Shown one piece after another: positions 14,217-27,895 of a DNA stretch of 27,895 nt. Every line of letters begins with the position of its first letter. Position 1 is the first letter of the stretch. Both the position numbers and the translations under genes were made by a program. Source of the stretch: Verrucomicrobiia bacterium (GTDB lineage: Bacteria; Verrucomicrobiota; Verrucomicrobiia; Limisphaerales; Palsa-1400); assembly GCA_036501665.1 (NCBI GenBank), contig DASXZW010000024.1, positions 1 to 27,895 of the forward strand, in the 5' to 3' direction. The notes under the pieces were generated by a model, which was not told the DNA's origin, searched no databases, and worked only from the letters and a program-made list of their open reading frames with translations.

Positions 14217-15713
14217 ATGAGACCCAGCGACAAAACATATTTCACGCACCTTCCCACGGGCAAAATTAGGGCGAACCCCTTCAACCCTCGAAAAACCTTC
14301 GACCAAGAGAGCCTAGATGAACTGGCTGCGAGCCTTGCAACTCACGGAGTTTTGCAGCCTCTCATCGTTTACGAAGACGAAACCTTTTTCGTCCTCATCT
14401 GCGGCGAACGCCGCCTGAGAGCCGCCCGTCAAGCCGGTCTGCCAGAAGTCCCAGCCATCGTTCATCCCATTCCCCCGGAAAACCCGCAGATGCTCTCGAT
14501 GATGCTCATCGAAAATCTGCAACGGAAGGAAGTCGATGTGGTGAATGAGTCTGCGGCGATTCGCCTATTGATAGAGGAGCACAACTGGTCCGTGGCCAGG
14601 GTGTCCAGAAGCTTGGGCGCCGGGGCAGCCTACGTCCGAAAACGGTATCTCCTTACTAAATTCAGTGACGTCCTCGTAGCCTTCACGAACAACACGATTT
14701 CATATTCTGAGGCCATCGAACTTGCATCGATTGAGGATGAGACCGTGCGAAAGTGGTTTTTCAGGCGTATCGAATCCGGAGAGCTTGCCGATTTGAAGAA
14801 ACTTGCCACAGCCGTGTCCCGCGATAAGCAGATCCACAACCTTTTGGGGAAAGGAACCTTCCTCAAACAGGCCCTTGATCGGTCCGCCGTCGAGTTTCAA
14901 GTTGATGGCCTTCCGTACTGCGATCCAAAATGTCCACACTACTTTCGAATTAGCTGGGACGAAAAGCAGCAGTACAAGATTCCGCACAGGAAGCCGGGTT
15001 GGGCAGAATTCTGTACAGACAAATGCGGGTCGTGCTACACGCAAAAGGTTAATGCAAAACAAACGAAACTGTCTGCATTGCGCTCCTTGAAGGCCCAAAG
15101 GCCAATCGCCGATGACGACTTTTCTTCGATGATGTGGCTTAATTACGAGGGGAAGTCCTGCCGAACCTGCCCGTGGATGGTGGAGACGACCGCCCTTGAG
15201 GAGGCTGGCCTAACCCCCCCCCCGAAAGCCCACGCCGTTTGCTCTTGCCCCTCCCCTGAATGCTACGATAAACGGACGCACGTTCTCAACAAGCGTGCGT
15301 CCAGACTTGATTTGCAAAAACAGCAATCCGACGATCTCAAACGTAAAATCCTCTTGAAAGAACTGAAAACGCCGTCCAACAAATTGAGTCAGAATCCCCG
15401 TCCCCAACTTACCAAACGGGAGTGTGCCTTCATCCTACTTCAGACCATTTCGCTCCTTGGAGGTCACGCACGTATACGTGACTTCGCGGAACGCCACGGC
15501 TGGGCAGATAAAATGCCCGCCCAGACCTACGCACAAGTGAAATTTGTACGGAATAAGATTCTCGATGAAATGTCCGAGGCAGACCTCTACGAAGCCCTGC
15601 TCAATGAAGCATGCCTCTCCGCAGCTTATACCACCGAGCCCTTTGTCCCGCTCCGGTTTAGGAGGGATGTTCAAAGCGAAGTCCCGGTGCAAACGAAGGA
15701 AGTTGATGAGTAG
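14217..15713 (+). CDS. ParB/Srx-like domain protein with Cys-rich C-terminal half; probable DpdB-like partner of DpdA
   Basis: 498 aa; IRANPFNPRKTFDQESLDELAASLATHGVLQPLIV, ICGERRLRAARQAGLPEVPAIV, LIENLQRKEVDVVNESAAI; Cys motifs CDPKC, CTDKCGSC, CRTC, CSCPSPEC. Confidence 0.8.
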   Translation: MRPSDKTYFTHLPTGKIRANPFNPRKTFDQESLDELAASLATHGVLQPLIVYEDETFFVLICGERRLRAARQAGLPEVPAIVHPIPPENPQMLSMMLIENLQRKEVDVVNESAAIRLLIEEHNWSVARVSRSLGAGAAYVRKRYLLTKFSDVLVAFTNNTISYSEAIELASIEDETVRKWFFRRIESGELADLKKLATAVSRDKQIHNLLGKGTFLKQALDRSAVEFQVDGLPYCDPKCPHYFRISWDEKQQYKIPHRKPGWAEFCTDKCGSCYTQKVNAKQTKLSALRSLKAQRPIADDDFSSMMWLNYEGKSCRTCPWMVETTALEEAGLTPPPKAHAVCSCPSPECYDKRTHVLNKRASRLDLQKQQSDDLKRKILLKELKTPSNKLSQNPRPQLTKRECAFILLQTISLLGGHARIRDFAERHGWADKMPAQTYAQVKFVRNKILDEMSEADLYEALLNEACLSAAYTTEPFVPLRFRRDVQSEVPVQTKEVDE

Positions 15714-17640
15714 GCTGGTCCACACTTACTTTTCGCTCCAGCGCCAAGCACAGTCAGGTGGTAGGCTTGGCACGATCCACTTCGGGAATGGAGGCAAGGT
15801 TCAGACCCCGGCTCTGTTCCCGGCCATTTGCATTATGACCGGCCCCCCCGGTTTTGGCCGTCAGGGCTCGCACTACAAGTACATCAAACGCATTATGTGC
15901 CGCGAGTGGCACCACAATCATTTCCTGACTGAGATCCTCCACTTTGCGGACTATATGGCGACAGCCAAATCATTGAATGCATGGCTGATCAAGCCATTCC
16001 ATCTCTGGATGGATGAAATGATGCGTGGCGGCAATGTGTCCAATCAGGACCAAGGCGATGATTTTGATTACGAACCGGGCCGGGCATACGAAGCCTGTTT
16101 TTTCCTCGACTCAGGCGGGTTTAAACTCCTTTCGAATAGTGATTTCAGCATTCAGAAATTCGGTTATGAAACCAGCCCAAAAAACATTCTCGACCTCCAG
16201 ACCCACATGGGCGGGGATATTATTGCGTCCCTCGACTACCCATTGGCCCCGTTGGATTATGATCATAAGACCCTGGCTCAATTGCAAAACAAGAGCCTCG
16301 ACAACGCCGTCTGGCTCCTTAAACAAATTGCCGACCGAGGTAGCAAAGGGCCGCGCCCTTTAGTTTACTTGGCGGTCCACGGCATAGATTGCGAATCTGC
16401 CCACGACTGCACTGAGCGCCTGCTGCAAAAACTCGACTCAGGAAATTTTCAATATGAGGCATTCGGATTCGCCATCGGCTCACTAGTGCCGCGCCGCAGC
16501 AATCGCGCTCTTGTTGCGAGTATTGTAAAAGGCGTCGTTGATGCAATCCACGATCATCACAACGGTCGTTATATCGAAAAGCCCGTCCATGCTTTCGGCA
16601 TGTCCGGAGACCTCATCCCGACCCTTACAATGCTCGGTGTGGACACCTTCGACACCAATGCCTTTGTCCAAGGTGGCAAAAATCTGCGGTATATCTTGCC
16701 CCCGCGAGGGGCAAACCTCTCCGTTCGTGAGACTAGGTCTATCGACGAACTTTCGTTGGATACCCTCCGCACATGCGGCTGTCGCGCCTGTACCAGATAC
16801 GAAAAACTTCTCAATCCATTTAAGCAACTAGCTCGCATGGAGAGAGACACTCGCCATAAAATTAAGGGGGTTGGCCGTCACCTGATCAAGTCCGAGATCT
16901 ACGCTTTCCTGGCGCTTCACAACCTCGAAACCGAATATCGGGAAATTGAGGCAGTAAAAGCCGAAATTCTGAACAACACTCTGCCAGCCTACGTCCGCTC
17001 TTACGCCGAGCGCGCCAATCACCGTGGAACTCTCATCCGGGCATACGAAGCCGCCACCGGTGAGTTCGTCCCCCGCACGACTGGCAGACGGGTTTCCCTG
17101 GAGCTTACGCGGGAATCTTTTGGCATCTCAGACACGTACCGCCCCCCAGAGGATAAAGAAATCCTGATTTTTCTGCCTTGCACAAAAGATAAACCTTATA
17201 GTAGCGCGCGCTCCCACCAGGCGATTCGCGGGGCGCTCAACAAAGACCCACGCATACACATTGTCACCATCTCTGGCCTCTATGGCCCTGTACCGGAAGA
17301 GTTGGAGCAGGAACCCGAAATCCTCCAATATGACTACGTTCTGTCACCCGAAGCGAAGGAGCAATCGAACGCCATCACGCGACGATTGAGCGAATATCTG
17401 AAGCGGTTCGGCACCCATTACAAGACCATCGTCGCTTACGTCACCACCCGCGCGTACCGTCACGTTGCAAAGCAAGCACTCCGGGCTTATGGACGTGGCG
17501 TGTTATTGCCCACGGCGCCAAAAGAACAAACATCCAAAGAATTTCTCCGATACGAGAATATTCGTGAGCTCCAGACAACTTTGGCACCACACATAGAAAC
17601 CTCAAAATCACTTGATGCATACCAAACCCTGAACACTTAA
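15706..17640 (+). CDS. dpdA: DpdA-like 7-deazaguanine transglycosylase (TGT-fold domain plus ArcS-like C-terminal domain)
   Basis: Starts MSRLVHTYFSL, overlapping the ParB-like gene by 8 nt; FFLDSGGFKLL, YLAVHG, FGFAIGSLVPRR, LTMLGVDTFDT nucleophile region, zinc site CGCRAC...ALHNLE; C-term ILIFLPCTKDKPYSSARSHQAI. Confidence 0.88.
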   Translation: MSRLVHTYFSLQRQAQSGGRLGTIHFGNGGKVQTPALFPAICIMTGPPGFGRQGSHYKYIKRIMCREWHHNHFLTEILHFADYMATAKSLNAWLIKPFHLWMDEMMRGGNVSNQDQGDDFDYEPGRAYEACFFLDSGGFKLLSNSDFSIQKFGYETSPKNILDLQTHMGGDIIASLDYPLAPLDYDHKTLAQLQNKSLDNAVWLLKQIADRGSKGPRPLVYLAVHGIDCESAHDCTERLLQKLDSGNFQYEAFGFAIGSLVPRRSNRALVASIVKGVVDAIHDHHNGRYIEKPVHAFGMSGDLIPTLTMLGVDTFDTNAFVQGGKNLRYILPPRGANLSVRETRSIDELSLDTLRTCGCRACTRYEKLLNPFKQLARMERDTRHKIKGVGRHLIKSEIYAFLALHNLETEYREIEAVKAEILNNTLPAYVRSYAERANHRGTLIRAYEAATGEFVPRTTGRRVSLELTRESFGISDTYRPPEDKEILIFLPCTKDKPYSSARSHQAIRGALNKDPRIHIVTISGLYGPVPEELEQEPEILQYDYVLSPEAKEQSNAITRRLSEYLKRFGTHYKTIVAYVTTRAYRHVAKQALRAYGRGVLLPTAPKEQTSKEFLRYENIRELQTTLAPHIETSKSLDAYQTLNT

Positions 17641-17713: not shown

Positions 17714-18112
17714 ATGGCAAAAACAATAGCGGATGTTGAAATCGTAGTACAACAGCAAGGCGAACAGGACAGAGTCTTTCGTGCCTCAGTTTCTCTGGAA
17801 GCAAAGCGTTCCTACACAGTTTCCATTCTGGGGCCAGAGGCCAATCCGGATATAACATCGCTGGACTCGGACTCTCAAGCCCCCGCAACCGCGCTCCTCG
17901 AGCAAAAACTGAAGCAGCTTGTCGATCAGTTCGACCCCACCATCGCCCTCGTCAAGATAACCAAGGACACACTCAACGTTTTGCCAAAAGTTACTTACCG
18001 CTGTGGTAACTGGCGCTGTCAAACCAAGCTGTTTGAATCCTGGGGCCTCGCGCCGGGCATTCGCATACTTTGCAAGAAGTGCAAGACCCTGCGAATTCCC
18101 AAAGTCGTCTAA
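17714..18112 (+). CDS. Small protein with C-terminal Com-like zinc-ribbon
   Basis: 132 aa; VTYRCGNWRCQTKLFESWGLAPGIRILCKKCKTLRIP (CxxxxC...CxxC). Confidence 0.7.
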   Translation: MAKTIADVEIVVQQQGEQDRVFRASVSLEAKRSYTVSILGPEANPDITSLDSDSQAPATALLEQKLKQLVDQFDPTIALVKITKDTLNVLPKVTYRCGNWRCQTKLFESWGLAPGIRILCKKCKTLRIPKVV

Positions 18113-18124
18113 GGAGGACGCACT

Positions 18125-19327
18125 ATGACCACACCTGACGAAACAGATGACTTCCTCGACAAATACCTGCCCACACAGTCCCCTCACGCGAATGAACTGA
18201 AGCGCAGCATCACTCTATGTAATGACGACCCGAAACTCCTTGACTGCATTCTAATCTTAGGCCCCACCGGATGTGGCAAGACGCGCCTAGCGAAAATCAT
18301 CGCTGCACATCGATGCTGGATAAACTTCAAAAAGCAGCATACGATCAAAAGCGAATACATTAAAGCGGAAAATTGGCGGGATCTCGAACTCAAGTGGCTA
18401 CAAGGATTCAACAGTATCCTTAGCGACTTCGGCGAGCCGTTCGAGTCGATTAACATCAGCAATGTGGAAGGTTTGGCGTTTGAGTCCGAACTCTTTGGCC
18501 ACGTTGCAGGGGCCTTTACCGACGCAAAAACAGAAAAGCCCGGATTGCTCGCCAGGCCACTTTTATGCGATGTGCTCATTGATGAGATAGGCAATGCTGA
18601 GATTCCTACACAGCGTAAATTGTTGCAGCTTCTTCAGGATAAAACTTACAGGAAAAAGGGCTGTACGACAAAACTTGACTGTGATGCTCGTTTACTTTTC
18701 GCCACCAACGTCAAGCCTGAGTTGCTCCTTCAGAGTAAAGCTCTCCAGGAGGATTTTTACTACCGCCTGTGCAACGGGATCATCCTTGAGATTCAGCCAC
18801 TCAAGAACAGAACCGAAGAGATTGAAGATATTTCCACATCTGTGCTTGACTTTTTAAAGTCAAAACTGCCTCCCCTTGATCCTCGTCTTTCCTGCTATTT
18901 ATCGCCGGATGATCTCACATTTGCGAAAACCTATACCTGGCCAGGTAACATAAGACAGTTGGAAGCGGCTCTCCGCAACTGGCTTGCTAATGTCAAATGG
19001 ACTCCCGCGGTCACACTACAGCAAATGGTCATTGCGAATGCCGAGAAGTACACCGCTTTGGTCCCTCCAGAGAAGATTTCTCTCAATTCAATTTTGGATT
19101 CATACGTGACCGCCCGTCTCAATTCAGCCGCAGCCGGGGAGAAAATACAATCCCTGACAGAGGAGGTAGCCCTCGTCAAAAGAACCGCAGAAACAATTTT
19201 CGCATCTCGCGTGTCGTCAGCCGGTCACACGAAGTCTGAAGCGACTCTTGGCAAAATATGCGCCAAGAACTCCACAAAGCATCTCAAACATATAAGACAA
19301 TGGATTGCTCGAAGAAAACCGAATTAG
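18125..19327 (+). CDS. AAA+ ATPase of the sigma-54 activator (bEBP) type, with no receiver domain and an altered GAFTGA loop
   Basis: 400 aa; GPTGCGKTRLAK, VEGLAFESELFGHVAGAFTDAKTEKPG, DVLIDEIGNAEIPTQRKLLQLLQDKTYRKKG, FATN, YYRL, YTWPGNIRQLEAALRNW; AAGGAGG SD. Confidence 0.85.
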   Translation: MTTPDETDDFLDKYLPTQSPHANELKRSITLCNDDPKLLDCILILGPTGCGKTRLAKIIAAHRCWINFKKQHTIKSEYIKAENWRDLELKWLQGFNSILSDFGEPFESINISNVEGLAFESELFGHVAGAFTDAKTEKPGLLARPLLCDVLIDEIGNAEIPTQRKLLQLLQDKTYRKKGCTTKLDCDARLLFATNVKPELLLQSKALQEDFYYRLCNGIILEIQPLKNRTEEIEDISTSVLDFLKSKLPPLDPRLSCYLSPDDLTFAKTYTWPGNIRQLEAALRNWLANVKWTPAVTLQQMVIANAEKYTALVPPEKISLNSILDSYVTARLNSAAAGEKIQSLTEEVALVKRTAETIFASRVSSAGHTKSEATLGKICAKNSTKHLKHIRQWIARRKPN

Positions 19328-19480
19328 TTGCTTATTGCGGCAATCCGATTGCGGATATGAGCAACTGTAGAATCAAAACAGAATGCTCTCATTGCGTCAT
19401 ATAGCACTAACCAACAACATGTTGCACATAAAGCTGCAACGACGGCCTGAATTTGGCATACCACTCGCATCATCATCGCC

Positions 19481-20011
19481 ATGTTGAATGTTGGAATAAC
19501 GATTTGGAATCAACAGCTTCTCAATGATTTCCTGAGGGAGCTTGAGGCGGGCCCCCAATTGTTTGAGCAAGTCGTGCTCATCTCTCCCTTCGTCAATTTG
19601 TCGGCCACTTCCCGCATCGCCACACGTATTCGCCATCTGTCTGTTTCACTATTACGGCGTCGCGTGACACTTGAAATCGTTTCCGACCTCACCCGCGCAC
19701 GAGTCATGTCCTTCGTGAACTACCAGGCAGACGAGCCTCATTGTCCCAGTTTCCTGACCCTTTACCCAAAACTTCATTCCAAATGTGGGTACGCCGTCGC
19801 CAGAAACGGCGCTCATATCGCCTTCGCTGGGTCAGCAAACCTAACGGACGCAGCGCTGTCAAAAAATAAAGAATTGGTAATCGCGGTTAAGACCACACCC
19901 TCCCTCCCTGAGACGCAGAAAGTATTCAATCAAATAAAACAACAGGCAGACGAAATCCTGGCAGAATCCGTTGGCCCTGGCCACATCACGGCAAAAAGAA
20001 AGTGCTACTAA
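19481..20011 (+). CDS. Phospholipase D-like protein, DpdK-like candidate
   Basis: 176 aa; VVLISPFVN, YPKLHSKCGYAVARNGAHIAFAGSANLTDAALSKNKELVIAV (HxK...GSxNLT signature). Confidence 0.7.
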   Translation: MLNVGITIWNQQLLNDFLRELEAGPQLFEQVVLISPFVNLSATSRIATRIRHLSVSLLRRRVTLEIVSDLTRARVMSFVNYQADEPHCPSFLTLYPKLHSKCGYAVARNGAHIAFAGSANLTDAALSKNKELVIAVKTTPSLPETQKVFNQIKQQADEILAESVGPGHITAKRKCY

Positions 20012-20199: not shown

Positions 20200-21336
20200 A
20201 TGAGTACTTTCACAAATTTCTATTTCCTAAAAAACAACCGCGCCAATTTCGAGTTGGACGTTCGGAAAGACGCCAAATTGGTTTTCGGATACACCAAACT
20301 GAAAGACCTTGTGGACTCCATGCTTGGCGACGCCACGATCAGTGGCACGCCCCCTAAGAGTTTCTGGTGGGGTCAGTACGGTTGTGGCAAAACCCATCAC
20401 TTGCATTACACCGAACAAACGATAAATGCAGTGATGCCATTTAGAGTAGTGCGTTTCGATCTCCCAGAAGTAACGAGCAAGAGTCTTTTCAATGATCTAC
20501 AACTGAACCTCGTGACTCGAATCGACTTAGCCTATTTCAGACCACTCCTCATTTCTCGCTACCAGGCTGACCTCACATGGCTGCAACACCTCTCAATTCC
20601 TCCGGACGTAAGGCAAGCCTTTAATACGATAATCAGTAACGAAATGCGAGCCTTAGAAGCGTGGCGGTTTTTGGCCGGCATAAAAACGGACGATCCAGGT
20701 GGCATAGGGGTAACAAAGAAACAACTCACAGAGGGTGAGGAATTTGCCGCCGCAATAGCTACCATCGCAGAGGTGATTCATTTGCAGGAAAACAAGATGT
20801 TGCTTTACCTAATCGATGAAGCTGAGGGGCTCAGCGCCGTCACCAATGCTGATTCACAGAAAAAGTGGGCACATTCTCTCCGCAAATGTCTCGACCTACG
20901 CGTGGGTTTCGTTTTAGCAATCGCTGCTGAAAAACAGCAATACATACCCGAAATCCTCCAGGCCCAAGAGGTCTGGCGACGCGTTGGAGACGACTACATC
21001 GTCGCTCTCCAGGCACTCCGCGTTCCCGAAATTGAAGGCTTTCTTCGTGGGCTTCTTCACGCTTTCATCGACGAACAGAAACTGATCGCCGCCGAGGGTG
21101 CTGGCACGTTCGCTAACTATCCCCTTTACGATAGGAGCACCTTTCCATTTACCCAAGAAGCTCTCACCGGCTATGCCAAGTACCTTGGCCACAATCAACA
21201 AAACTCGAAGCCATCTGAAATCCTAAAAAATCTTCAAAAGATTAGCCATGCGGCGGTTCGCGTTGATAAACGAGTAATCGACAAAGACTTCCTCACTACG
21301 GCAGGACCCGACGGCCAAAGTTGCTTTCACGACTAA
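20200..21336 (+). CDS. P-loop ATPase with YGxGKTH Walker A
   Basis: 378 aa; FWWGQYGCGKTHHLHYTEQ; MLLYLIDEAEGLS Walker B. Confidence 0.8.
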   Translation: MSTFTNFYFLKNNRANFELDVRKDAKLVFGYTKLKDLVDSMLGDATISGTPPKSFWWGQYGCGKTHHLHYTEQTINAVMPFRVVRFDLPEVTSKSLFNDLQLNLVTRIDLAYFRPLLISRYQADLTWLQHLSIPPDVRQAFNTIISNEMRALEAWRFLAGIKTDDPGGIGVTKKQLTEGEEFAAAIATIAEVIHLQENKMLLYLIDEAEGLSAVTNADSQKKWAHSLRKCLDLRVGFVLAIAAEKQQYIPEILQAQEVWRRVGDDYIVALQALRVPEIEGFLRGLLHAFIDEQKLIAAEGAGTFANYPLYDRSTFPFTQEALTGYAKYLGHNQQNSKPSEILKNLQKISHAAVRVDKRVIDKDFLTTAGPDGQSCFHD

Positions 21337-21345
21337 GGACGACTT

Positions 21346-22746
21346 ATGAGTAAATATATTATCAATCCAACGATTCAGGGGGATGTGACGTTAGGTGAAG
21401 GCGACCGCAAGAGCACGATGTTCGTAGGGCGCCTAGCTGAGACTGGGGCGGTGCGAAACGTCTATCAAGACGTGTCTAAAGAGTTCGTCAGTATTATTAT
21501 TGGTCAACGCGGCAGTGGCAAAAGTTTCAGCCTTGGGTCGCAACTTGAAAGCCTATGCACCACAAACCGAGAATCCTCCATAGGGAAGCGGCAGGAGGAT
21601 CGAGGCGTCCTCCTTATTGATCCAAACGCCAATTTCTGGACGAGTGCCATGCCGCTGCGAAATGGTGACCACGCCCGCCTGAAAAGGCAGCATTCCTCCA
21701 TCTCCGGGTGGAAAATCGGCATAGATGATGTAGCCGTCCAGGTATGGACTCCGGCGGGTTGCCGCTCCAGTACCGATCATCTGTCTGTTCAAGAATATTT
21801 CTTTGATACATCCGATTTTCGTTGTGAGGAATGGGCCGAAATCCTGTCGCTTGACACGACTCAGGACCCTCGCGGTATGTTGCTTTCTGATCTTTACTAC
21901 AAACTACGAGTTTCCGGATGGCATGATGGTACTCGTCGAGTTGATCCAGCGTCCAGAGTGGATCTCGCAACTCTTGTCAATTGTTTGGAAAATGATTCCG
22001 ACATCAATACAGGCTCAGCCGGGTATCAAAAGAGCACAATCGCAGCTCTGAAAAAGGAATTGGTCTCCTTATCGCGCCGCCCATTATTCGCAAATGCAGG
22101 CACACCGCTCACGACACTTATCAAGCCAGGAGTATTCAGCATTATGATGCTTCCATATGAACTGGGTCGTGGTTTACGGTCGGTTCTCGCGAGGGTTATC
22201 ATCAGTAAAATGATGAGCCATCGACGGGAAGCGACTAAGTTGCAACAGAGGCTTGACTTCGAAGAGATGCCGGACGCGCACCGGCAGGATTTGCGCTCCA
22301 AAGTCCTGAACCTCATACCCAGGACGGTTTTGGCCATCGACGAGGCCCAAGAGTTGCTTGGAGAAGCTGGGGGAGTCGAGCGCGCTGTACTTGAAGATTA
22401 TTGTCTTCGCGGGCGCGGCTTTGGTCTGTCGATGATCCTCGCCACTCAGCGACCGGAGTCCAGCGCCCTAAGCTCCAAGGTCACCAGCCAAGCTGACACT
22501 TGGTACATTCACAGCCTCGGTTCGCAAGGCAACATATCTACCGTTTATGATAACCTGGTCGCTGCATTTCCAGAGACAGTTTCGGACGGTCGCCAAACGC
22601 TTGATTTCTTCAGCCTTCTCAGGTCCTTGAACACAGGGCAATCGCTCGTGGCCGCAAAATCCATGGAAACCGGTAACGGAGTGCGGCGTGCATTTGTCAT
22701 GGATACTCGCCCGCGTGTCCGAATTCACGGTGGTGATGCCTCATGA
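21346..22746 (+). CDS. HerA/FtsK-like ATPase
   Basis: 466 aa; VSIIIGQRGSGKSFSLGSQLE; GVLLIDPNANFW; TVLAIDEAQELLGEAGG; MILATQRPESS; SD AAGGACGACTT upstream. Confidence 0.8.
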   Translation: MSKYIINPTIQGDVTLGEGDRKSTMFVGRLAETGAVRNVYQDVSKEFVSIIIGQRGSGKSFSLGSQLESLCTTNRESSIGKRQEDRGVLLIDPNANFWTSAMPLRNGDHARLKRQHSSISGWKIGIDDVAVQVWTPAGCRSSTDHLSVQEYFFDTSDFRCEEWAEILSLDTTQDPRGMLLSDLYYKLRVSGWHDGTRRVDPASRVDLATLVNCLENDSDINTGSAGYQKSTIAALKKELVSLSRRPLFANAGTPLTTLIKPGVFSIMMLPYELGRGLRSVLARVIISKMMSHRREATKLQQRLDFEEMPDAHRQDLRSKVLNLIPRTVLAIDEAQELLGEAGGVERAVLEDYCLRGRGFGLSMILATQRPESSALSSKVTSQADTWYIHSLGSQGNISTVYDNLVAAFPETVSDGRQTLDFFSLLRSLNTGQSLVAAKSMETGNGVRRAFVMDTRPRVRIHGGDAS

Positions 22747-24032
22747 CCATTCCACTTATTACATCATACACTGAGTTTCAGCAGCGCCTCGGCTACTGCA
22801 AGCTCCTCCTGGCCGTTTCCAAGCGAGCCGCCTCACAGCCCGAACAGGTGCTCAGACAACTCGATCACATATTTTTCAAGCCTACCGCCGACGGACACGA
22901 CACTTACCTCGGTCAAATCCTTGGGAAGCAGGTCCAAGTCAAAACAGCCCACTCCCACCTCCGTCTCCACAATTCCCTAGCCGAAACGGATAGCACGACG
23001 AGCCTTCGCAGCTTCGGGAACGAAGCAAAAGAGATACTAACGCTCTGCAGGGCGCTCGGATTGGTTGATGACCGCGTTGTTATCCTCGAAAACGCTATGC
23101 CTCTCATTCGTCTCATCCCCGAGGCTTCCTGGGATCTTGTTCGCCAAGGCTTACGGCCTGACGAGTACAACCCCTTGATCCTCGATCATGGCACCAGCAA
23201 TGTGAGCGAAAAAACCTACTTCCTTATTCGTCTATTAAGCGAGGACATTGCGTTTACATTGCTTCCTCTGGCTCTTCGCTCCAAAACTCGGACTGCTTTC
23301 CATCGCTACATTGATTGGGATGGGCTAAAAACCGACGATTTTCCCTCTAACAATATGTTAACGGTGGTCTATGAAGACCTAATATGCAGCGCCAAACCAA
23401 GACTCTTCGGTGAGGTCCGCAATGCCAAGAATTTAGACAACTATTTCCTTGGTGATCCTCGCAAACGGCGTACTCATCCCGGCATGCGGCAGTACGCGCG
23501 CTTCAGACATCAGGCTACACCGCGACTTGCGTTTCTGAAGGAACTGGGTATAATTGCGTCCCAACCTTTGCCGCCACCGGATTCTCATCTCTCGAAGCAA
23601 TACTCATATCTTCTTACGCCAACAACAGAAGCATACGTCGAATACATTCGGAAGACGTTACTGGCGGACGGGCTGGATAGCGAGGAGTTTGTGCGGAATC
23701 ACGCCTTTAAAATTGCAAGTATAATATACCATAGGGTCACTCGGCGACCCGTAGATCAGGAGGAAGTATTCCGTTACTTTTTGCGCGCGTATGTGCGACT
23801 AAAGCGCGACATGGGGAATACCCCCTCCGGTAGCATTTGTATGTTAGGATGCCTTCTCGCACAGGACGATGGCCTTTTAATAGAAATAAAGGAAATGCAC
23901 CAAGTCGGGCGGGACTACGCCCGTAAGTACTCTGAGTTTCTCCGCTATTCGGGTGGCAGCATTCAACTTGGAGATTATCTTATATCAGTTGATCATAGAT
24001 TGCTGCAAAACCTTGGTATCCAGAACCCATAA
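22743..24032 (+). CDS. Uncharacterised protein of the ATPase module
   Basis: 429 aa; ATGA overlap with the HerA-like gene; no recognised motif. Confidence 0.75.
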   Translation: MTIPLITSYTEFQQRLGYCKLLLAVSKRAASQPEQVLRQLDHIFFKPTADGHDTYLGQILGKQVQVKTAHSHLRLHNSLAETDSTTSLRSFGNEAKEILTLCRALGLVDDRVVILENAMPLIRLIPEASWDLVRQGLRPDEYNPLILDHGTSNVSEKTYFLIRLLSEDIAFTLLPLALRSKTRTAFHRYIDWDGLKTDDFPSNNMLTVVYEDLICSAKPRLFGEVRNAKNLDNYFLGDPRKRRTHPGMRQYARFRHQATPRLAFLKELGIIASQPLPPPDSHLSKQYSYLLTPTTEAYVEYIRKTLLADGLDSEEFVRNHAFKIASIIYHRVTRRPVDQEEVFRYFLRAYVRLKRDMGNTPSGSICMLGCLLAQDDGLLIEIKEMHQVGRDYARKYSEFLRYSGGSIQLGDYLISVDHRLLQNLGIQNP

Positions 24033-24045
24033 TCGAAGAACAATT

Positions 24046-24903
24046 ATGCCATCAAACAAGCCAAAGCCAAACGATATCGCCGAAAGCCCCCTCGGTCCGC
24101 TTGCCTTGAAAGTTTTTGACCGCTCAAAAGTTTGGTCGCTTTTAGCAAAGCAGGTGGAGGACTGCTTTGTTTTCGCCAACGCCACTCCGAACGCCCAACT
24201 CGATCCATTTAAGGTCGCACTACTCCTGCCGCAACTCCAATTACACTTCAGAACTACTAATGACCCTCCCGACGCAGATCTGTCCGCACTACAGGCATGG
24301 ACAAATCAAGAGTGCCGACGTGCAATTGCTGAGTTCGAGGTTGCTTTGCAAAAATTGTGCGCGGCAGAAAAACTCCAAGTAGAAGGCCGGTTCCCTCACT
24401 TCATTCTTGCAGGATTCCTCGAAATTATAGTTCAAGATAAACAACCCGTTTGTAAAATCGGTGGGTCCAGCTTAAATACAGTGAACCTTTCAATCGTTGC
24501 GCCTGTAATCCTTCAAAGGATCAGGGAGGACACCGCCCGCAAGTTCGACCCCAAGTTATTTCTTGATCAACTATACAAAGCTTATCAACGAACCGCTCTC
24601 AATGGGCGAATTCCGGGAGGCGAGCCCGTGCTTGCGAAGTTGATTCTTCCAGAGATCGCCTTTATTAAACAATCGCTCGCTTTCTTGAAGTCGCCGTCCA
24701 AGGCTGCCTTCGTCGATTACACCTTGGAACACTTCGCTCGTGATTTGGCCCTCATTCTGAAAGACGGCAACGTTTGCACCTCTAACGGCAAGCGTTTACA
24801 CCCAACACCAGTGTCCAATTCGTCTGACGGCATTCCAGTTATGATCGACGGCGCTTATCGATACATAGGACGTCTCACCTTCTTGGAGGAAACCCAGCGA
24901 TGA
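24046..24903 (+). CDS. Uncharacterised protein of the ATPase module
   Basis: 285 aa starting MPSNKPKPNDIAESPLGPLALKVFDRSKVW; ATGA overlap with next gene. Confidence 0.7.
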   Translation: MPSNKPKPNDIAESPLGPLALKVFDRSKVWSLLAKQVEDCFVFANATPNAQLDPFKVALLLPQLQLHFRTTNDPPDADLSALQAWTNQECRRAIAEFEVALQKLCAAEKLQVEGRFPHFILAGFLEIIVQDKQPVCKIGGSSLNTVNLSIVAPVILQRIREDTARKFDPKLFLDQLYKAYQRTALNGRIPGGEPVLAKLILPEIAFIKQSLAFLKSPSKAAFVDYTLEHFARDLALILKDGNVCTSNGKRLHPTPVSNSSDGIPVMIDGAYRYIGRLTFLEETQR

Positions 24904-26207
24904 GCACACTGGATCAACCGTTAGCCAAACGGCTCATTTCGCGCCTGAAGGCAGGTACGGCGCCCATTGACTGTGTGGACCAATTGAATGTTGGAAATGA
25001 AGCTTGGTACAGTGCTGCTGTTCAATACTTTGAGGACTTAGCTCAGGATGGCGACGCCCTCGTCCGCTTCGTGCGCGGCCACTATGGTGATGGCAAAACA
25101 CACTTTTTAGGGATGCTCGGTGCTCTCGCATTCAAAAACGGTTGGAGCGTCAGCTACGTTACCGCCGAGAGAACCAAACTTCACAAATTCGAGGTCGTCT
25201 ATTCCGAAATTATAAAGGCCATAAATCTTCCGCCAGGTGTTTCAATTGTCCCCTGGCTTACTGAAATCAGACCGAGGGGGGCGATGTCCCTGTTGGGAGC
25301 CTTTTTCTCCAAGATATACATCGACGTGCATGGTGCTGCCAATGAACATGGCATCAATCGAATGTCGGTACTTCACGAGGTTAAACAACGTGTGGCCAAG
25401 TTTAGTGCGGCGAACGGATTCCACGACTTAGTGAGCACAGCGCTCATGATTTTCACGAAAGCAGCACTGGCACAAGAGGCTCAAGGAATGTCTGACATGG
25501 TTTCATGGTTTCAGGGTGATGATGTTAAATTTAGAGATAAAGGAATAAATAGGCGGATCGACCAACGTCTTGCAAGAGATGTGCTTCGCTGTCTCACGCA
25601 AGTATCCCAGCACGTAGGGATTCGTGGCACCTTGGTCCTTCTTGACGAGGCGGAACTTATATTGGCACAAACGAAGTCTGTACGCACTAAATCCTATTCG
25701 GTGCTTCGTGACCTCCTCGATAATGCCGATCCGCAAGCAGGAATGCGCGCATCCATTATATATATTGCTGCGACACCAGAAATGTTCACGGCTAAAGAAG
25801 GCTTTGCTGAGTACGAAGCGCTGCGCTCGCGCCTAATGCCGGCATTATCCTTTACATCCAAGAGATTCATCGACTATCGCGACGTGGTAGTTGATCTCAC
25901 GCGAACCCCGCTTCCTGCGGACCTCCTGTTCCAGCTTGCAAAGAAAGTACGTGGAATCCATTCTGTTGCCAGACAGTGGGACGCTTCGGCTCACATTTCG
26001 GACGATCTGCTACAGATCATTGTCACGCGGATAGACAACGGGTCGTTTCCCGTCTCGAAGCCGCGCATGGTTACTTCCGTGATTACGCAGCTTCTGGAGT
26101 CCGCTGAGCAGAACAGGACCGAGGACCCCACTTTGGCAATTGAAGCGACGGTGTCGGATGCGGCACAAACACTCTCCATGCGGCCCGATTCCGAGAAATG
26201 GGATTGA
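24900..26207 (+). CDS. BrxC/BrxD (DUF2791)-like P-loop ATPase
   Basis: 435 aa; FVRGHYGDGKTHFLGMLGALAFKNGWSVSYVTAE; TLVLLDEAELI; VIYIAATPEMF-like sensor segment (IIYIAATPEMF). Confidence 0.7.
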   Translation: MSTLDQPLAKRLISRLKAGTAPIDCVDQLNVGNEAWYSAAVQYFEDLAQDGDALVRFVRGHYGDGKTHFLGMLGALAFKNGWSVSYVTAERTKLHKFEVVYSEIIKAINLPPGVSIVPWLTEIRPRGAMSLLGAFFSKIYIDVHGAANEHGINRMSVLHEVKQRVAKFSAANGFHDLVSTALMIFTKAALAQEAQGMSDMVSWFQGDDVKFRDKGINRRIDQRLARDVLRCLTQVSQHVGIRGTLVLLDEAELILAQTKSVRTKSYSVLRDLLDNADPQAGMRASIIYIAATPEMFTAKEGFAEYEALRSRLMPALSFTSKRFIDYRDVVVDLTRTPLPADLLFQLAKKVRGIHSVARQWDASAHISDDLLQIIVTRIDNGSFPVSKPRMVTSVITQLLESAEQNRTEDPTLAIEATVSDAAQTLSMRPDSEKWD

Positions 26208-27895
26208 ATCAGCGGGAATTTCAGATGAACCTAACGAAATCAAGTGCTCGCTGCGCAATTCGGCACTTGAAGCGTGGCGTGTTCCCGCCAGATGAGATTG
26301 AGCATTTCACGGCGGGCCGCGACTCCGAGTGCAAAGCTCTCAACATCGCCCTTAAAGAAGCAGAACAGGGGGGAAACCGCCATTTCTTTATCGAAGCGAG
26401 CTATGGCGTGGGCAAATCACACATGCTCAAGCTCGTTGAGTCACTTGCACTACGAAATGGCTTCGCGGTGTGCTGGGTAACTACTGACGGTTACGCGCAC
26501 GCTTTCAACCATCCTACCCGCTATTTGCACACCCTTCTCGAGAACATGAGAGTTCCAGGTTTGCACAGAAACGGGTTCGCTCAAGCGTGTTCGCATTGGC
26601 TCAAGAACCGCGAACGCGACAACCTACTTACTCGCGTTAAGAGTCAGCCTAACAATGCGCTTCACTGGCCTATTATCCGCATGAGTATGGAAAACGGTGA
26701 CGAGGGCGACTATAAGGATTACTATCTGGGTAACCTAGAGTGCCGCGATCTACAGCATAGAAACGGTCAAGCGTTTTTTGATTGTGTGTATGACCGCATC
26801 GCGTCAATGAACTCGGTGTGTCGTTCTGTAAGTTTAAAAGGAACTGTGTTTCTATTCGACGAAGTTGAATCCGTGGCTACTCTTTTGGTTAATATTCGTT
26901 CTCGTCTTCTTTCTTACGAGTTAATGAATGCATTCACCGATGCTCGCCGATTTCCAAATTCTGTATTTGTATTCGCCACCACCCTCGATTTCAGTGTTAA
27001 GATTCATTACGAGCTGAATGCTTACGAACTCCAAAACTATGCGTATCCAGAAGGCAATCGTTTCGCAAAAAAGTGGATTTCAAAAGGCATAAATCTTCTC
27101 AAGTTAGAAGGAATCAGCCAAGGAAATAATCGAGTACTGTTGCGTAATATTCGGACCGCCCACGAGACCGCCTACGAATGGGTGGCAACCGAAAAGATCA
27201 GCGACCATTTCATCGATCGGTTCCTCAAAAAGGCCAATGATCTTCCTCAGCGTGAGATTACGAGGAGCTTCGTCACTATTCTGGAAATCTCACATCAACA
27301 TCCCACCTGCTGCCCGGCAACCGAATTCCTTGGCGAGGCGTCGCCCACGCCGCAAATTGTGGAGGGCAATGACTCTAGGGTGGTTCGGGAGACCTTTGGT
27401 TCACAGGACGTACCACCATCGCCATGCACTCCGCAAGCGGAGTCGACTTCGGCATCACGTTCTTCTAAAGCAGAGCCGCCAAAAAACCAGTCAACTCCTG
27501 ATTCGTCAACTGTTACGCATGAAACGCCGTTGCCAGATCAAAACCTTAGTTCCTTTCCGCAGCTTGGTTCTTCCACGGCACCATTGACTACTCCAAACAC
27601 TGGCCTATTGCCGTGCGTTCATTGCTTTGCATCAGTAAGGTCTGACCGTATGGGAAGGCATATTGCTCGGTTTCACGCAGGTTTGCAGCCGCCAACCAAT
27701 GTTGCGCCAATGGAAGCCACCGTGGACCAGCCGGGCAAATCAACATCAAATAGCGCGGAAGGCACTTTCACCAGCACCTCAATCTGTTTGGTGCCGTGTA
27801 ATTATTGCTTTTGCATGGTCAGATCTGACAGATTGCAACGACACATACAACGTGTGCATTCAGGGCAACATCGTCCTCCAAGTCCCAATGACTAG
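26198..27895 (+). CDS. BrxC/BrxD (DUF2791)-like P-loop ATPase with Ser/Thr/Pro-rich linker and two C-terminal C2H2-like zinc fingers
   Basis: 565 aa; FFIEASYGVGKSHMLKLVESLALRNGFAVCWVTTD; TVFLFDEVESVA; CVHCFASVRSDRMGRHIARFH and CNYCFCMVRSDRLQRHIQRVH; alternative start ATG 26225. Confidence 0.75.
   Translation: MGLNQREFQMNLTKSSARCAIRHLKRGVFPPDEIEHFTAGRDSECKALNIALKEAEQGGNRHFFIEASYGVGKSHMLKLVESLALRNGFAVCWVTTDGYAHAFNHPTRYLHTLLENMRVPGLHRNGFAQACSHWLKNRERDNLLTRVKSQPNNALHWPIIRMSMENGDEGDYKDYYLGNLECRDLQHRNGQAFFDCVYDRIASMNSVCRSVSLKGTVFLFDEVESVATLLVNIRSRLLSYELMNAFTDARRFPNSVFVFATTLDFSVKIHYELNAYELQNYAYPEGNRFAKKWISKGINLLKLEGISQGNNRVLLRNIRTAHETAYEWVATEKISDHFIDRFLKKANDLPQREITRSFVTILEISHQHPTCCPATEFLGEASPTPQIVEGNDSRVVRETFGSQDVPPSPCTPQAESTSASRSSKAEPPKNQSTPDSSTVTHETPLPDQNLSSFPQLGSSTAPLTTPNTGLLPCVHCFASVRSDRMGRHIARFHAGLQPPTNVAPMEATVDQPGKSTSNSAEGTFTSTSICLVPCNYCFCMVRSDRLQRHIQRVHSGQHRPPSPND

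What the first reader, a model, noticed from the sequence alone, without database searches (positions are those of the whole stretch)
20365..26425. Three separate ATPases in one operon share the YGxGK(T/S)H P-loop signature, alongside a HerA-like ATPase
WGQYGCGKTHHL (20200 ORF), RGHYGDGKTHFL (24900 ORF) and EASYGVGKSHML (26198 ORF) share the same unusual Walker A context, and IIGQRGSGKSFSL occurs in the 21346 ORF. Repeated related ATPases suggest a hetero-oligomeric machine. The signature recalls BREX BrxC/BrxD-type ATPases, but no PglZ phosphatase or BREX methyltransferase is visible.
Basis: partly seen in the sequence, partly recalled or inferred. Interest (0 to 1): 0.78.

Follow-up and report, generated by a model that had tools for sequence, protein, structure and literature searches.

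The report
Three-ATPase nuclease module beside deazaguanine DNA-modification genes
The three look-alike ATPases are real paralogues that, with a HerA-type motor, a PLD nuclease and two unknown proteins, form a rare, apparently undescribed effector module which here sits directly after genes that put a 7-deazaguanine base into DNA, so it is most likely a new variant of a restriction-modification-like defence island.

Summary
YGxGK(T/S)H occurs three times (6e-4 expected) and profile comparison shows three full-length BrxD/DUF2791 paralogues. The fourth P-loop protein belongs to the HerA/FtsK group.

Directly upstream lie QueF, QueC, QueE, QueD, FolE2, a ParB-type NTPase and a TGT–DUF5591 (ArcS-core) fusion, which together form a Dpd-like 7-deazaguanine DNA-modification module. 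After these come a small Zn-ribbon protein, a PspF-like sigma-54 activator, a sigma-54 promoter-like site and a PLD nuclease.

The order is conserved in several Verrucomicrobiae-type metagenome contigs. In other phyla the same effector module sits next to C5 cytosine methyltransferases or a radical-SAM-like gene. Conversely, the same ParB–TGT–small module is found with SNF2/DEAD helicases. This two-way swapping fits restriction-modification logic.

The core is PLD + ATPase-1 + HerA + unknown-A. Unknown-B and the other two ATPases are missing in two loci, which weakens an obligate three-ATPase hetero-oligomer.

It is not BREX, canonical Dpd, Shango, MADS or BRC. It is rare: 8 loci in 185,579 species genomes. 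I found no description of it in the searchable literature. Defence activity and mechanism are inferred.

The parts
10810..11274 (+). QueF, unimodular NADPH-dependent preQ0 reductase (likely start at M74 of the long ORF)
   Evidence: Pfam QueF 2.1e-30. NCBIfam TIGR03139 preQ1 synthase scores 160 bits against a cutoff of 86.9. FTSLCPVTCQPDF and ETKSLKLY motifs were read; start position. The gene is variable: present in L005, absent in L003/L013.
11271..11975 (+). QueC (preQ0 synthase)
   Evidence: Pfam QueC 4.6e-61
11977..12669 (+). QueE (radical SAM CDG synthase); start taken at M92 of the long ORF
   Evidence: Pfam Radical_SAM 2.2e-13. N-terminus MLISEIFYSLQGEG and start. Orthologues in L003/L005.
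12666..13148 (+). QueD (PTPS family, CPH4 synthase)
   Evidence: Pfam PTPS 5.9e-27
13145..13960 (+). FolE2 (GTP cyclohydrolase IB)
   Evidence: Pfam GCHY-1 8.3e-92
14217..15713 (+). ParB-type NTPase with HTH and a Cys-rich C-terminal region; functional counterpart of DpdB
   Evidence: Pfam ParB_N 8.7e-25 and HTH_ParB. GERRLRAA motif. 8-nt overlap with the TGT gene, as in L003/L013/L015.
15706..17640 (+). TGT–DUF5591 fusion (DpdA-like transglycosylase fused to an ArcS C1-core domain)
   Evidence: Pfam TGT 4.1e-17 and DUF5591 1.2e-19. NCBIfam ArcS 6.4e-25 and arcTGT 8.3e-18, both below cutoff. PDB hits 1iq8 ArcTGT and 2q07. DSGGF, GVDTFD and LPCxxxKPY are invariant in alignment A8.
17714..18112 (+). 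Small 132-aa protein with a C-terminal CxxC...CxxC ribbon; travels with ParB-TGT
   Evidence: No significant family match. Orthologues follow TGT in L003/L005/L013/L015/L026/L049/L051.
18125..19327 (+). PspF-like sigma-54 activator (AAA+ domain only, GAFTDA loop)
   Evidence: Pfam Sigma54_activat 1.7e-28. PADLOC RtcR_PspF2 1.5e-37. PDB LuxO/NtrC/FleQ/PspF hits from 1e-26 to 1e-15. ESELFGHxKGAFT[DG]A is conserved in most of the 10 aligned homologues; L020 has AELFGARKGAYTGL.
19340..19352 (.). GCAATCCGATTGC palindrome; candidate activator-binding site about 110 nt upstream of the -24 element
   Evidence: Found at the same place in L015, L005 and L006 only; clade-restricted and tentative.
19454..19469 (+). 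Sigma-54 promoter-like element TGGCATACCACTCGCA (GG-N10-GC), 27 nt before the PLD start codon
   Evidence: Equivalent elements occur in 7 of 10 activator-containing loci, against 0.32 hits expected.
19481..20011 (+). PLD-family (HKD) nuclease
   Evidence: Pfam PLDc_2 2.8e-06 and RE_NgoFVII 9.9e-05. PADLOC ZacB 5.6e-11 and DrmC. KLHSKCGY...GSANLT motif.
20200..21336 (+). ATPase-1, divergent BrxD/DUF2791-like AAA+ ATPase (Walker A nt 20371-20394)
   Evidence: No Pfam, PADLOC or NCBIfam family on its own. hhalign to ATPase-2 96.4%, E 1.2e-9. Only 9 clusters in 5.8e9 proteins.
21346..22746 (+). HerA/FtsK-type P-loop ATPase
   Evidence: PADLOC mad8 3.3e-11 and HerA 2e-8. DUF87 in orthologues. Weak PDB matches to FtsK. 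Walker A GQRGSGKS and Walker B VLAIDEA.
22743..24032 (+). Unknown-A (429 aa), helical; C-terminal ~80-100 residues winged-helix-like
   Evidence: No family match. AF2 pLDDT 46.8 overall and 66-86 at the C-terminus. Foldseek matches ORC1/Cdt1 WH domains with TM 0.52-0.62 but E~0.5. 113 representatives in 1.84e9 proteins.
24046..24903 (+). Unknown-B (285 aa)
   Evidence: No family match. AF2 pLDDT 71.6. No PDB fold match; best E 0.9. 8 clusters in 5.8e9 proteins.
24900..26207 (+). ATPase-2, BrxD-family AAA+ ATPase
   Evidence: PF10923 6e-46. PADLOC BrxD 8.2e-39 and SngB 1e-25. NCBIfam BREX_BrxD 130.9 bits, below the cutoff of 350.
26198..27895 (+). ATPase-3, BrxD-family AAA+ ATPase with a lineage-specific C-terminal extension carrying two C2H2-like fingers
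   Evidence: PF10923 1.4e-23 and zf-H2C2_5 9e-4. hhalign to ATPase-2 E 2.9e-33. The extension is found only here and in L015.

Best explanation
The three YGxGK(T/S)H proteins are paralogous BrxD/DUF2791 (ORC/Cdc6-clade) AAA+ ATPases. Together with a HerA/FtsK-type ATPase, a PLD-family nuclease and two uncharacterised proteins, one with a probable winged helix, they form the effector ('restriction') half of a modification-dependent self/non-self system. In this window the modification half lies directly upstream. QueF/C/E/D and FolE2 make preQ0/preQ1. A ParB-type NTPase and a TGT–DUF5591 fusion then exchange guanine in DNA for the 7-deazaguanine base, and may convert it further to an archaeosine-like form. 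The effector operon is transcribed from a sigma-54 promoter controlled by its own PspF-like activator, which would keep a potentially self-toxic nuclease machine tightly off until it is activated. Inferred mechanism: the BrxD-like ATPases and the winged-helix protein recognise unmodified DNA. They then recruit or load the HerA/FtsK motor, which feeds the DNA to the PLD nuclease. Shown here: homology, intact catalytic motifs, conserved linkage, swapping of modules, and enrichment of promoter-like sites. Inferred: the defence role, DNA as the target, the subunit assembly, the loading step, and the chemical identity of the modified base.
For: (1) The three ATPases are homologous over their full length and keep Walker A and B. 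(2) The gene order [QueF]-QueC-QueE-QueD-FolE2-ParB-TGT/DUF5591-small-activator-PLD-ATPase1-HerA-unkA-unkB-ATPase2-ATPase3 is the same in L003/L013, L005/L016 and L015. Their proteins are 30-99% identical to those of the window. (3) The effector module recurs next to other DNA-modifying genes. C5 cytosine methyltransferases are adjacent in L017, L018 (with a Vsr-like gene), L019 and L020. The L018 and L020 enzymes are 45% identical across two phyla. A B12/radical-SAM-like gene sits in the Dehalococcoidia-type loci. (4) Conversely, the same ParB-TGT/DUF5591-small module is followed in L049 by SNF2 and DEAD helicases, with no BrxD/HerA/PLD genes. (5) The TGT domain keeps DSGGF, GVDTFD and CxCxxC, and the DUF5591 domain keeps PCx3KPY. 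An ArcS2 protein made of DUF5591 alone yields dG+ from dPreQ0 DNA in phage nt-1 (PMC10516641). (6) The PLD HKD motif is intact and hits ZacB/DrmC defence nucleases. (7) The activator family keeps the GAFTGA-type loop in most of its 10 aligned members. Sigma-54 promoter-like sites lie just upstream of module genes in 7 of 10 loci, against 0.32 expected, P~6e-8. (8) Genes from 20200 to 27895 are tightly packed or overlapping.
Against: There is no experimental evidence for any step. All carriers are uncultured MAGs or metagenome contigs. ATPase-2, ATPase-3 and unknown-B are missing from L019 and L020, so the three ATPases are not an obligate unit. In L053 the module lies next to a UvrD + N6/N4 methylase + ResIII cluster that could be a separate system. 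Adjacency to methyltransferases may therefore partly reflect defence-island clustering. The L017 and L019 methyltransferases show only generic similarity of 25-30%. The unknown-A model is poor (pLDDT 46.8) and its winged-helix match has E~0.5. The promoter statistic was defined after the first hits had been seen, and the loci are not phylogenetically independent. Two loci (L013, L018) lack a clear site; L005 has only a sub-threshold GG-N10-GC element read from alignment A1. The window's own site has 2 mismatches. The presence of QueF clouds which base is inserted.
Confidence: 0.68

Rival explanations
1. BREX/MANTIS-like single complex. The ATPases act mainly to recruit and activate the modifying enzyme on DNA, and only secondarily to license restriction, so the modification and effector halves are not separable.
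For: In MANTIS, an AAA+ ATPase and a co-regulator are required to load the methyltransferase (bioRxiv 10.64898/2026.09.23.753747). BrxD-family proteins belong to BREX-type systems. Canonical DpdA needs the ATPase DpdB (PMC10164549). Modification and effector genes lie on one strand.
Against: The ParB-TGT-small module occurs without any BrxD/HerA genes in L049. The effector module also occurs with unrelated modifying enzymes. Both facts argue for separable halves. The module already has its own ParB-type NTPase next to the TGT.
Confidence: 0.2
2. Modification-independent defence or abortive-infection module. PLD + HerA + BrxD-like ATPases sense infection by themselves, and neighbouring modification genes are merely co-located in defence islands.
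For: L053 has the whole module with no obviously dedicated modifying enzyme. HerA/FtsK + Orc/Cdc6 + nuclease neighbourhoods have been proposed as stand-alone 'capture' systems (PMC10853773). The sigma-54 gating suggests inducible use.
Against: The order and spacing with the deazaguanine genes are identical in at least three diverged lineages. A C5 methylase is adjacent in 4 of 4 non-dpd genome loci that carry the activator. Two of those methylases are 45% identical across phyla.
Confidence: 0.1
3. Conjugative-element function. The element modifies its own DNA to evade recipient restriction, and the ATPase/HerA genes serve DNA transfer or partition rather than immunity.
For: The window carries a TrwC relaxase, a ParA and a type IV coupling protein just upstream. 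L004 has a TraG-like gene downstream. HerA/FtsK and ParB families also act in DNA transfer and segregation.
Against: Other loci carry the module among unrelated genes, such as TPR, SMC-like, hydrolase, transporter and ribonucleotide reductase genes, without conjugation genes. A PLD nuclease of the ZacB/DrmC type and BrxD-family ATPases are typical of defence systems.
Confidence: 0.05

Closest known systems
Dpd 7-deazaguanine restriction-modification system (Salmonella Montevideo DpdA-K; PMC10164549, PMC5699537)
   Same: A preQ0 pathway is used. A TGT-family enzyme paired with a ParB-superfamily NTPase is predicted to insert a 7-deazaguanine into DNA. A multi-gene ATPase/nuclease 'restriction' block follows. 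The island is mobile.
   Different: The TGT is closer to archaeal ArcTGT/ArcS and is fused to DUF5591. The ParB carries the classical GERRxRA motif, not the DndB-like DGQQR of DpdB. No DpdC (DUF328), DpdD or DpdE-K helicases are present. PADLOC returns no family for the TGT protein.
BrxD of type 2 BREX / Pfam PF10923 BrxC_BrxD
   Same: ATPase-2 and ATPase-3 pass the Pfam threshold, and ATPase-1 is a profile-level relative. All are stand-alone ORC/Cdc6-clade AAA+ proteins with a YGxGKTH P-loop (classification from PMC12839542).
   Different: There are three paralogues instead of one. There is no PglZ, PglX, BrxC, PglW or BrxHI helicase. All are below the NCBIfam BrxD equivalog cutoff (130.9 and 55.6 bits against 350).
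BREX-Related Capture (BRC) systems (PMC12839542, 2026)
   Same: They combine a HerA/FtsK ATPase, an ORC/Cdc6-type ATPase, DNA-binding wHTH proteins and, in a subset, a TGT homologue for DNA marking.
   Different: BRC is defined by PglZ, DUF6079, a STAND NTPase, DUF4007 and GNAT, and it lacks a DpdB/ParB. None of these was found here. Here the nuclease is a PLD and the ATPases are BrxD-type.
HerA/FtsK–Orc/Cdc6 'capture' neighbourhoods (PMC10853773, 2024)
   Same: The theme is the same: a HerA/FtsK motor, Orc/Cdc6-family AAA+ proteins, a nuclease and fast-evolving wHTH proteins.
   Different: Those neighbourhoods use REase-fold nucleases and an inactive REase inserted in the Orc/Cdc6 protein. 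That paper does not mention TGT, deazaguanine, BrxD, DUF2791 or PLD.
Phage DpdA2 + ArcS2 (Vibrio phage nt-1; PMC10516641)
   Same: A DNA transglycosylase plus a DUF5591-only ArcS core gives dG+ from dPreQ0 in DNA. The PCx3KPY motif is conserved here.
   Different: There the two are separate phage proteins used for anti-restriction. Here they form one fused bacterial protein linked to ParB and an effector module. tblastn of the fusion against 50,697 phage records finds nothing.
Shango (SngABC)
   Same: SngB is a DUF2791-type ATPase. ATPase-2 hits the SngB model at 1e-25.
   Different: No TerB-domain SngA and no SngC helicase is present.
PspF-type bacterial enhancer-binding proteins
   Same: AAA+ domain with a GAFT(D/G)A loop, no N-terminal sensor domain, and sigma-54 promoter-like sites next to the controlled genes.
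   Different: No recognisable HTH_8 domain was detected. The gene is often translationally coupled to the PLD gene, as in L010 and L017-L020. A partner playing the role of PspA is unknown.

Membership tests
Pfam PF10923 BrxC_BrxD (DUF2791) ATPase family | Score above the Pfam gathering threshold (22.2 bits) over the full-length model | tested here: met
   ATPase-2 scores 157.6 bits over model positions 6-410 of 414. ATPase-3 scores 83.9 bits in two stretches.
Pfam PF10923 BrxC_BrxD (DUF2791) ATPase family | The same threshold, applied to ATPase-1 (20200-21336) | tested here: inconclusive
   The window protein has no Pfam hit. Its 44%-identical orthologue P0006 carries a faint precomputed PF10923 hit. 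hhalign of its family to ATPase-2 and ATPase-3 gives 96.4% and 94.7% probability over more than 310 columns.
BREX BrxD (NCBIfam NF033438 equivalog) | Score at or above 350 bits | tested here: not met
   130.9 bits (ATPase-2), 55.6 bits (ATPase-3) and no hit (ATPase-1).
BREX system (any type) | PglZ phosphatase, a BrxC/PglY ATPase and a PglX methyltransferase (or PAPS reductase) in the locus | tested here: not met
   Pfam, PADLOC and NCBIfam scans of the listed ORFs of the window found none of these.
Dpd system | DpdA: TGT-family protein with catalytic Asp residues, next to preQ0 genes | tested here: met
   TGT 4.1e-17. DSGGF and GVDTFD are invariant. QueC/E/D and FolE2 are adjacent. However, PADLOC returns no family for this protein and the closest solved relative is ArcTGT.
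Dpd system | DpdB: DndB/SspE-like ParB-superfamily ATPase with a DGQQR motif | tested here: not met
   The adjacent protein is a classical ParB_N + HTH_ParB with GERRLRAA. Motif definition from PMC10164549. A functional analogy is plausible but untested.
Dpd system | DpdC (DUF328) and DpdD, each present in about 90% of dpdA genomes, and DpdE-K helicases/nucleases | tested here: not met
   No DUF328, SNF2 or DEAD helicase is present in the window. Frequencies from PMC5699537.
ArcS / ArcS2 (DUF5591 core) | PF17884 domain with the PC-x3-KPY-x2-S-x2-H motif | tested here: met
   PF17884 1.2e-19. The sequence is PCTKDKPYSSARSH: P, C, KPY and H are in register, and Ser is shifted by one position. 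Amidinotransferase activity was not testable.
HerA/FtsK P-loop ATPases | DUF87/HerA profile match with Walker A and B | tested here: met
   PADLOC mad8 3.3e-11 and HerA 2e-8. Orthologues carry DUF87. The window protein itself has only a weak DUF87 hit, E 0.028. Hexamer formation and DNA translocation were not testable.
PLD (HKD) nucleases | HxK(x)4D...GSxN motif and a PLDc_2 match | tested here: met
   PLDc_2 scores 27.6 bits against a cutoff of 27. HSKCGY...GSANLT is conserved in the 7 aligned PLD sequences; the Dehalococcoidia-type PLD has LHAKIY...SSANL.
Sigma-54 enhancer-binding proteins | Sigma54_activat AAA+ domain with a GAFTGA loop, plus sigma-54 (-24/-12) promoters at target genes | tested here: met
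   PF00158 1.7e-28. GAFT[DG]A is conserved in 9 of the 10 aligned homologues; L020 has GAYTGL. Promoter-like sites occur in 7 of 10 loci against 0.32 expected. A DNA-binding HTH was not detected.
Shango | SngA (TerB domain) and SngC helicase alongside SngB | tested here: not met
   Only SngB-like hits were found; no TerB domain or helicase is present in the window.
BRC (BREX-related capture) system | PglZ, DUF6079, STAND NTPase and DUF4007 together with HerA/FtsK | tested here: not met
   None of the four was detected. Definition from PMC12839542.

The most novel reading that the evidence does not exclude
The effector block is a modification-agnostic 'reader–loader–motor–nuclease' machine. Up to three ORC/Cdc6-like BrxD paralogues plus a winged-helix protein load a HerA/FtsK ring onto unmarked DNA. 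This would be an immune counterpart of ORC–Cdc6–Cdt1 loading a replicative helicase. The machine can be plugged into chemically unrelated marks: 7-deazaguanine, 5-methylcytosine, or a radical-SAM product. In addition, the bacterial ParB + TGT–DUF5591 fusion would write an archaeosine-type or otherwise new 7-deazaguanine derivative into chromosomal DNA.
Probability: 0.2. Interest if true: 0.85.

Novelty: new variant of a known kind. Interest (0 to 1): 0.62.

Why it matters
Three points would matter if this holds.

- **A second effector type for 7-deazaguanine marks.** It would show that bacterial 7-deazaguanine DNA marks are read by an effector unrelated to DpdD-K, and that one effector machine can be coupled to several different DNA modifications. 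It would also offer a tractable case for what BrxD-family ATPases do, which is still unknown even in type 2 BREX.
- **A new writer architecture.** The ParB + TGT–ArcS-core fusion has a different make-up from DpdA/DpdB/DpdC and may produce a base not yet reported in bacterial chromosomes.
- **An uncommon control layer.** Gating a restriction module through a dedicated sigma-54 activator is an unusual form of control.

Tried and rejected
- **Near-identical DNA searches.** Searching 17700-27895 against plasmids and E. coli genomes found nothing.
- **Pairwise BLASTP of ATPase-1.** It found only Walker patches. Homology needed profile comparison.
- **PADLOC and NCBIfam.** These gave no system-level assignment.
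- **Membership of known systems.** BREX, Shango, MADS (only mad8 resembles the HerA-like protein), BRC and canonical Dpd were each considered and rejected on missing defining genes.
- **Structures of the unknown proteins.**
  - The unknown-A model is of low confidence. Only its C-terminal winged-helix-like part gives weak matches.
  - The unknown-B model is moderate and has no PDB fold match.
- **Profile searches of PDB sequences.** ATPase-1, ATPase-2 and unknown-A gave nothing significant.
- **RNA and promoter scans.** Rfam and tRNA scans of the window were empty. The sigma-70 promoter and terminator scan was uninformative.
- **Window-wide count of the sigma-54 consensus.** It is not above chance. 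Only the positional test across loci is.
- **Phage search for the TGT fusion.** tblastn found nothing.
- **Haloarchaeal TGT–DUF5591 loci.** These belong to a different system and were not pursued.

Full report
**The observation.** All four quoted P-loop peptides are in the stated ORFs. YGxGK[TS]H occurs exactly three times in the six-frame translation, at nt 20377-20397, 25083-25103 and 26402-26422. From the window's own residue frequencies, 6e-4 occurrences are expected.

The repetition reflects common descent:
- ATPase-2 (24900-26207) and ATPase-3 (26198-27895) match at BLASTP E=7e-10. Both pass the Pfam threshold for PF10923 BrxC_BrxD, at 6e-46 and 1.4e-23.
- ATPase-1 (20200-21336) has no family hit of its own, and BLASTP shows only Walker patches.
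- A profile of the eight ATPase-1 relatives aligns over more than 310 columns with ATPase-2 (96.4%, E=1.2e-9) and ATPase-3 (94.7%, E=5.6e-8). ATPase-2 vs ATPase-3 gives 99.9%, E=2.9e-33.
- Each of the three keeps Walker A and an hhhhDE Walker B.

The fourth protein (21346-22746) is a HerA/FtsK-type ATPase. It hits PADLOC mad8 at 3.3e-11 and HerA at 2e-8, its orthologues carry DUF87, and it has weak FtsK matches in the PDB.

**What surrounds the ATPases.** The four ATPase genes are the tail of an operon-like, single-strand run of 16 genes. In order:
- QueF (a true NADPH preQ0 reductase by its motifs), QueC, QueE, QueD and FolE2.
- A ParB-type protein.
- A TGT–DUF5591 fusion.
- A 132-aa Zn-ribbon protein.
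- A sigma-54-type AAA+ activator.
- A PLD nuclease.
- ATPase-1, HerA-like, unknown-A, unknown-B, ATPase-2 and ATPase-3.

The TGT domain keeps the catalytic DSGGF and GVDTFD aspartates and a CxCxxC zinc site. Its closest solved relative is archaeal ArcTGT. The C-terminal domain is the ArcS C1 core (PF17884, 1.2e-19), with PCTKDKPYSSARSH matching the PCx3KPYx2Sx2H motif apart from a shifted Ser (motif from PMC5699537 and PMC10516641). A DUF5591-only ArcS2 converts dPreQ0 in DNA to dG+ in Vibrio phage nt-1 (PMC10516641).

The ParB has the classical GERRLRAA nucleotide-binding motif rather than the DGQQR of DpdB. Its gene overlaps the TGT gene by 8 nt. There is, however, a DNA-modification module of the Dpd kind, built from different parts.

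The upstream 9 kb is a conjugative-element backbone with a TrwC relaxase, a ParA and a coupling protein.

**Conservation.** The window matches an NCBI Verrucomicrobiae MAG contig.
- The full order from the Que genes to ATPase-3 recurs in L003/L013, L005/L016 and L015. L001 and L006 are cut upstream. Protein identities run from about 30% to 99%.
- After ATPase-3 the neighbours differ from locus to locus, which marks the end of the island.
- The families are very small. ATPase-1 has 9 clusters, unknown-A 6 and unknown-B 8 among 5.8 billion.
- An exhaustive profile search finds 113 unknown-A representatives in 1.84 billion proteins.
- A scan of 185,579 species genomes finds 8 loci, all MAGs. They come from Verrucomicrobiota, Planctomycetota, Gemmatimonadota, Dehalococcoidia and one Thaumarchaeota contig with a distant ATPase-1 relative.

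**Modularity, which is the main argument for function.** The effector genes travel without the deazaguanine genes.
- L017 and L018 carry activator-PLD-ATPase1-HerA-unkA-unkB-ATPase2-ATPase3 beside a C5 cytosine DNA methyltransferase. In L018 there is also a Vsr-like gene.
- L019 and L020 carry activator-PLD-ATPase1-HerA-unkA beside a C5 methyltransferase, but lack unknown-B, ATPase-2 and ATPase-3.
- The L018 and L020 methyltransferases are 45% identical across two phyla. Those of L017 and L019 show only generic similarity.
- The Dehalococcoidia-type loci (L007-9, L022, L023) have a permuted order: ATPase2-ATPase3-PLD-ATPase1-HerA-unkA. This is followed by a B12-binding/radical-SAM-like protein (CINRCPYC; sub-threshold Pfam hits) and a HEPN-like protein. 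They have no activator.
- L053 has the full module next to a UvrD + N6/N4 methylase + ResIII cluster, which may be a separate system.

The reverse also holds. A metagenome scan with the TGT fusion found L049, where FolE2-ParB-TGT/DUF5591-small protein is followed by an SNF2 helicase and a DEAD helicase, with no BrxD/HerA/PLD genes.

A modification module that swaps effectors, and an effector module that swaps modification enzymes, is the signature of restriction-modification-like systems. The small Zn-ribbon protein travels with ParB-TGT. The conserved effector core is PLD + ATPase-1 + HerA + unknown-A.

**Regulation.** The AAA+ protein at 18125-19327 is a PspF-like enhancer-binding protein.
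- It hits Sigma54_activat at 1.7e-28, and its best solved relatives are LuxO, NtrC, FleQ and PspF.
- It has no N-terminal sensor domain.
- Its family keeps ESELFGHxKGAFT[DG]A across phyla, with the L020 homologue diverging to GAYTGL.
- A GG-N10-GC element close to TGGCAC-N5-TTGCW lies 27 nt before the PLD start codon (19454-19469).
- Similar or perfect elements lie just upstream of module genes in 7 of 10 distinct activator-containing loci, giving 8 hits against 0.32 expected, Poisson P~6e-8. This test was designed after the first hits were seen, the loci are related, and the window-wide count alone is not above chance.
- In the closest clade a GCAAT-N3-ATTGC palindrome sits about 110 nt upstream of the promoter-like site. 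It is a candidate activator-binding site.

I conclude, with moderate confidence, that the effector operon is sigma-54 dependent.

**The unknown proteins.**
- Unknown-A is helical. Its AF2 model is poor overall (pLDDT 46.8) but better at the C-terminus. That part weakly resembles the winged-helix domains of ORC1, ORC2 and Cdt1, with TM 0.52-0.62 on the target and E~0.5.
- The C-terminal half of unknown-A is also the part conserved among distant relatives.
- Unknown-B has a moderate model (pLDDT 71.6) with no PDB fold match.

**Mechanism.** The following is shown: three homologous, apparently active BrxD-type ATPases, a HerA/FtsK ATPase, an intact HKD nuclease, a catalytically intact TGT with an ArcS core, and the linkage and swapping patterns.

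The following is inferred. The upstream genes mark host DNA with a 7-deazaguanine. The BrxD-like ATPases with unknown-A recognise unmarked DNA and recruit or load the HerA motor. The PLD then degrades the DNA.

The loader idea follows the proposal that BrxD may load its partner helicase (PMC12839542) and the ORC/Cdc6 classification given there. The base itself cannot be named. QueF (present here and in L005, absent in L003/L013) points to preQ1, while the ArcS core points to an amidine made from preQ0.

Because L019 and L020 lack ATPase-2 and ATPase-3, an obligate hetero-oligomer of all three ATPases is unlikely. ATPase-2, ATPase-3 and unknown-B look like an accessory sub-module.

**Comparison with known systems.** This is not BREX: it has no PglZ, PglX or BrxC, and it is below the BrxD equivalog cutoff. 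It is not canonical Dpd, Shango, MADS or BRC.

The nearest published themes are BRC systems and HerA/FtsK–Orc/Cdc6 capture neighbourhoods (PMC12839542, PMC10853773). Neither describes this composition. Full-text searches for combinations of DpdA, BrxD, DUF2791, HerA, PLD and sigma-54 found no description. The library does not cover most subscription journals, so prior description cannot be excluded.

**Verdict.** The interpretation needs to be widened to a 16-gene island that combines a non-canonical 7-deazaguanine writer with a rare BrxD×3/HerA/PLD effector under sigma-54 control. It is a new variant of a known kind of system. All functional statements rest on comparative genomics.

Noticed in passing
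window 543-9107: Conjugative-element backbone upstream of the island: an HNH_2 protein (543-1334), an HTH_17 excisionase-like protein (2458-2937, - strand), a TrwC relaxase/helicase (2989-5808, - strand), a ParA (6458-7267) and a type IV coupling protein (7617-9107). The related locus L004 has a TraG-like gene and an Mrr nuclease downstream.
   Followed up: partly
window 9343-10566: A HATPase_c_4 (RecG-C-terminal-like) protein lies between the coupling protein and QueF. It is not found in the related loci.
   Followed up: no
window 27350-27895: ATPase-3 has a roughly 180-residue C-terminal extension. It consists of a Pro/Ser/Thr-rich linker and two C2H2-like fingers (CVHC...H...H and CNYC...H...H). 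It is present only here and in the 83%-identical L015 orthologue (584 aa); other orthologues are 371-431 aa.
   Followed up: partly
window 19340-19352; L015 6595; L005 8829; L006 860: A GCAAT-N3-ATTGC palindrome lies right after the activator's stop codon, about 110 nt upstream of the sigma-54 -24 element. It is conserved in the closest clade only and is a possible upstream activator site.
   Followed up: partly
L004/L005/L016 9573-10708 (locus L005 coordinates): In the Verrucomicrobiae MAG MFD09671.bin.2.80, ATPase-1 is split by a frameshift into 143-aa and 235-aa ORFs in both assemblies. This could be a pseudogene or an assembly error.
   Followed up: no
L049 1-10741: The same FolE2-ParB-TGT/DUF5591-small protein module is followed by an SNF2 helicase (1032 aa), a DEAD helicase (832 aa) and a 287-aa protein, i.e. 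a Dpd-like helicase effector.
   Followed up: yes
L024 (Haladaptatus plasmid NZ_CP119784.1, 47-62 kb) and about 20 hypersaline metagenome loci (L027-L052): Haloarchaeal TGT–DUF5591 fusions (about 31% identical) cluster with one or two further TGT paralogues. In L024 they also cluster with a 1493-aa AAA protein, a PLD protein and a DEAD helicase. This looks like a separate archaeal deazaguanine system.
   Followed up: partly
L019 14003-16330; L021 3749-5605: A GHKL ATPase follows unknown-A in L019 (HATPase_c_3/HATPase_c Pfam hits) in place of the BrxD pair. In the Thaumarchaeota locus L021, a 619-aa protein assigned as GHKL only from an ENSVD N-box motif (no Pfam hit) sits near a distant ATPase-1 relative, together with a TFIIB-like protein and a UvrD helicase.
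   Followed up: no
L007 7201-9134; L022 13818-15747; L023 8262-9554: The Dehalococcoidia-type variant ends with a B12-binding/radical-SAM-like protein (CINRCPYC; sub-threshold Pfam hits; frameshifted in L022) and a 220-aa HEPN-like protein (RNNAAH). These could be a new modification enzyme and a backup RNase.
   Followed up: partly
L018 17148-17558 (- strand): A Vsr-like very-short-patch repair endonuclease lies between ATPase-3 and the C5 methyltransferase. This fits a functional 5-methylcytosine writer.
   Followed up: no
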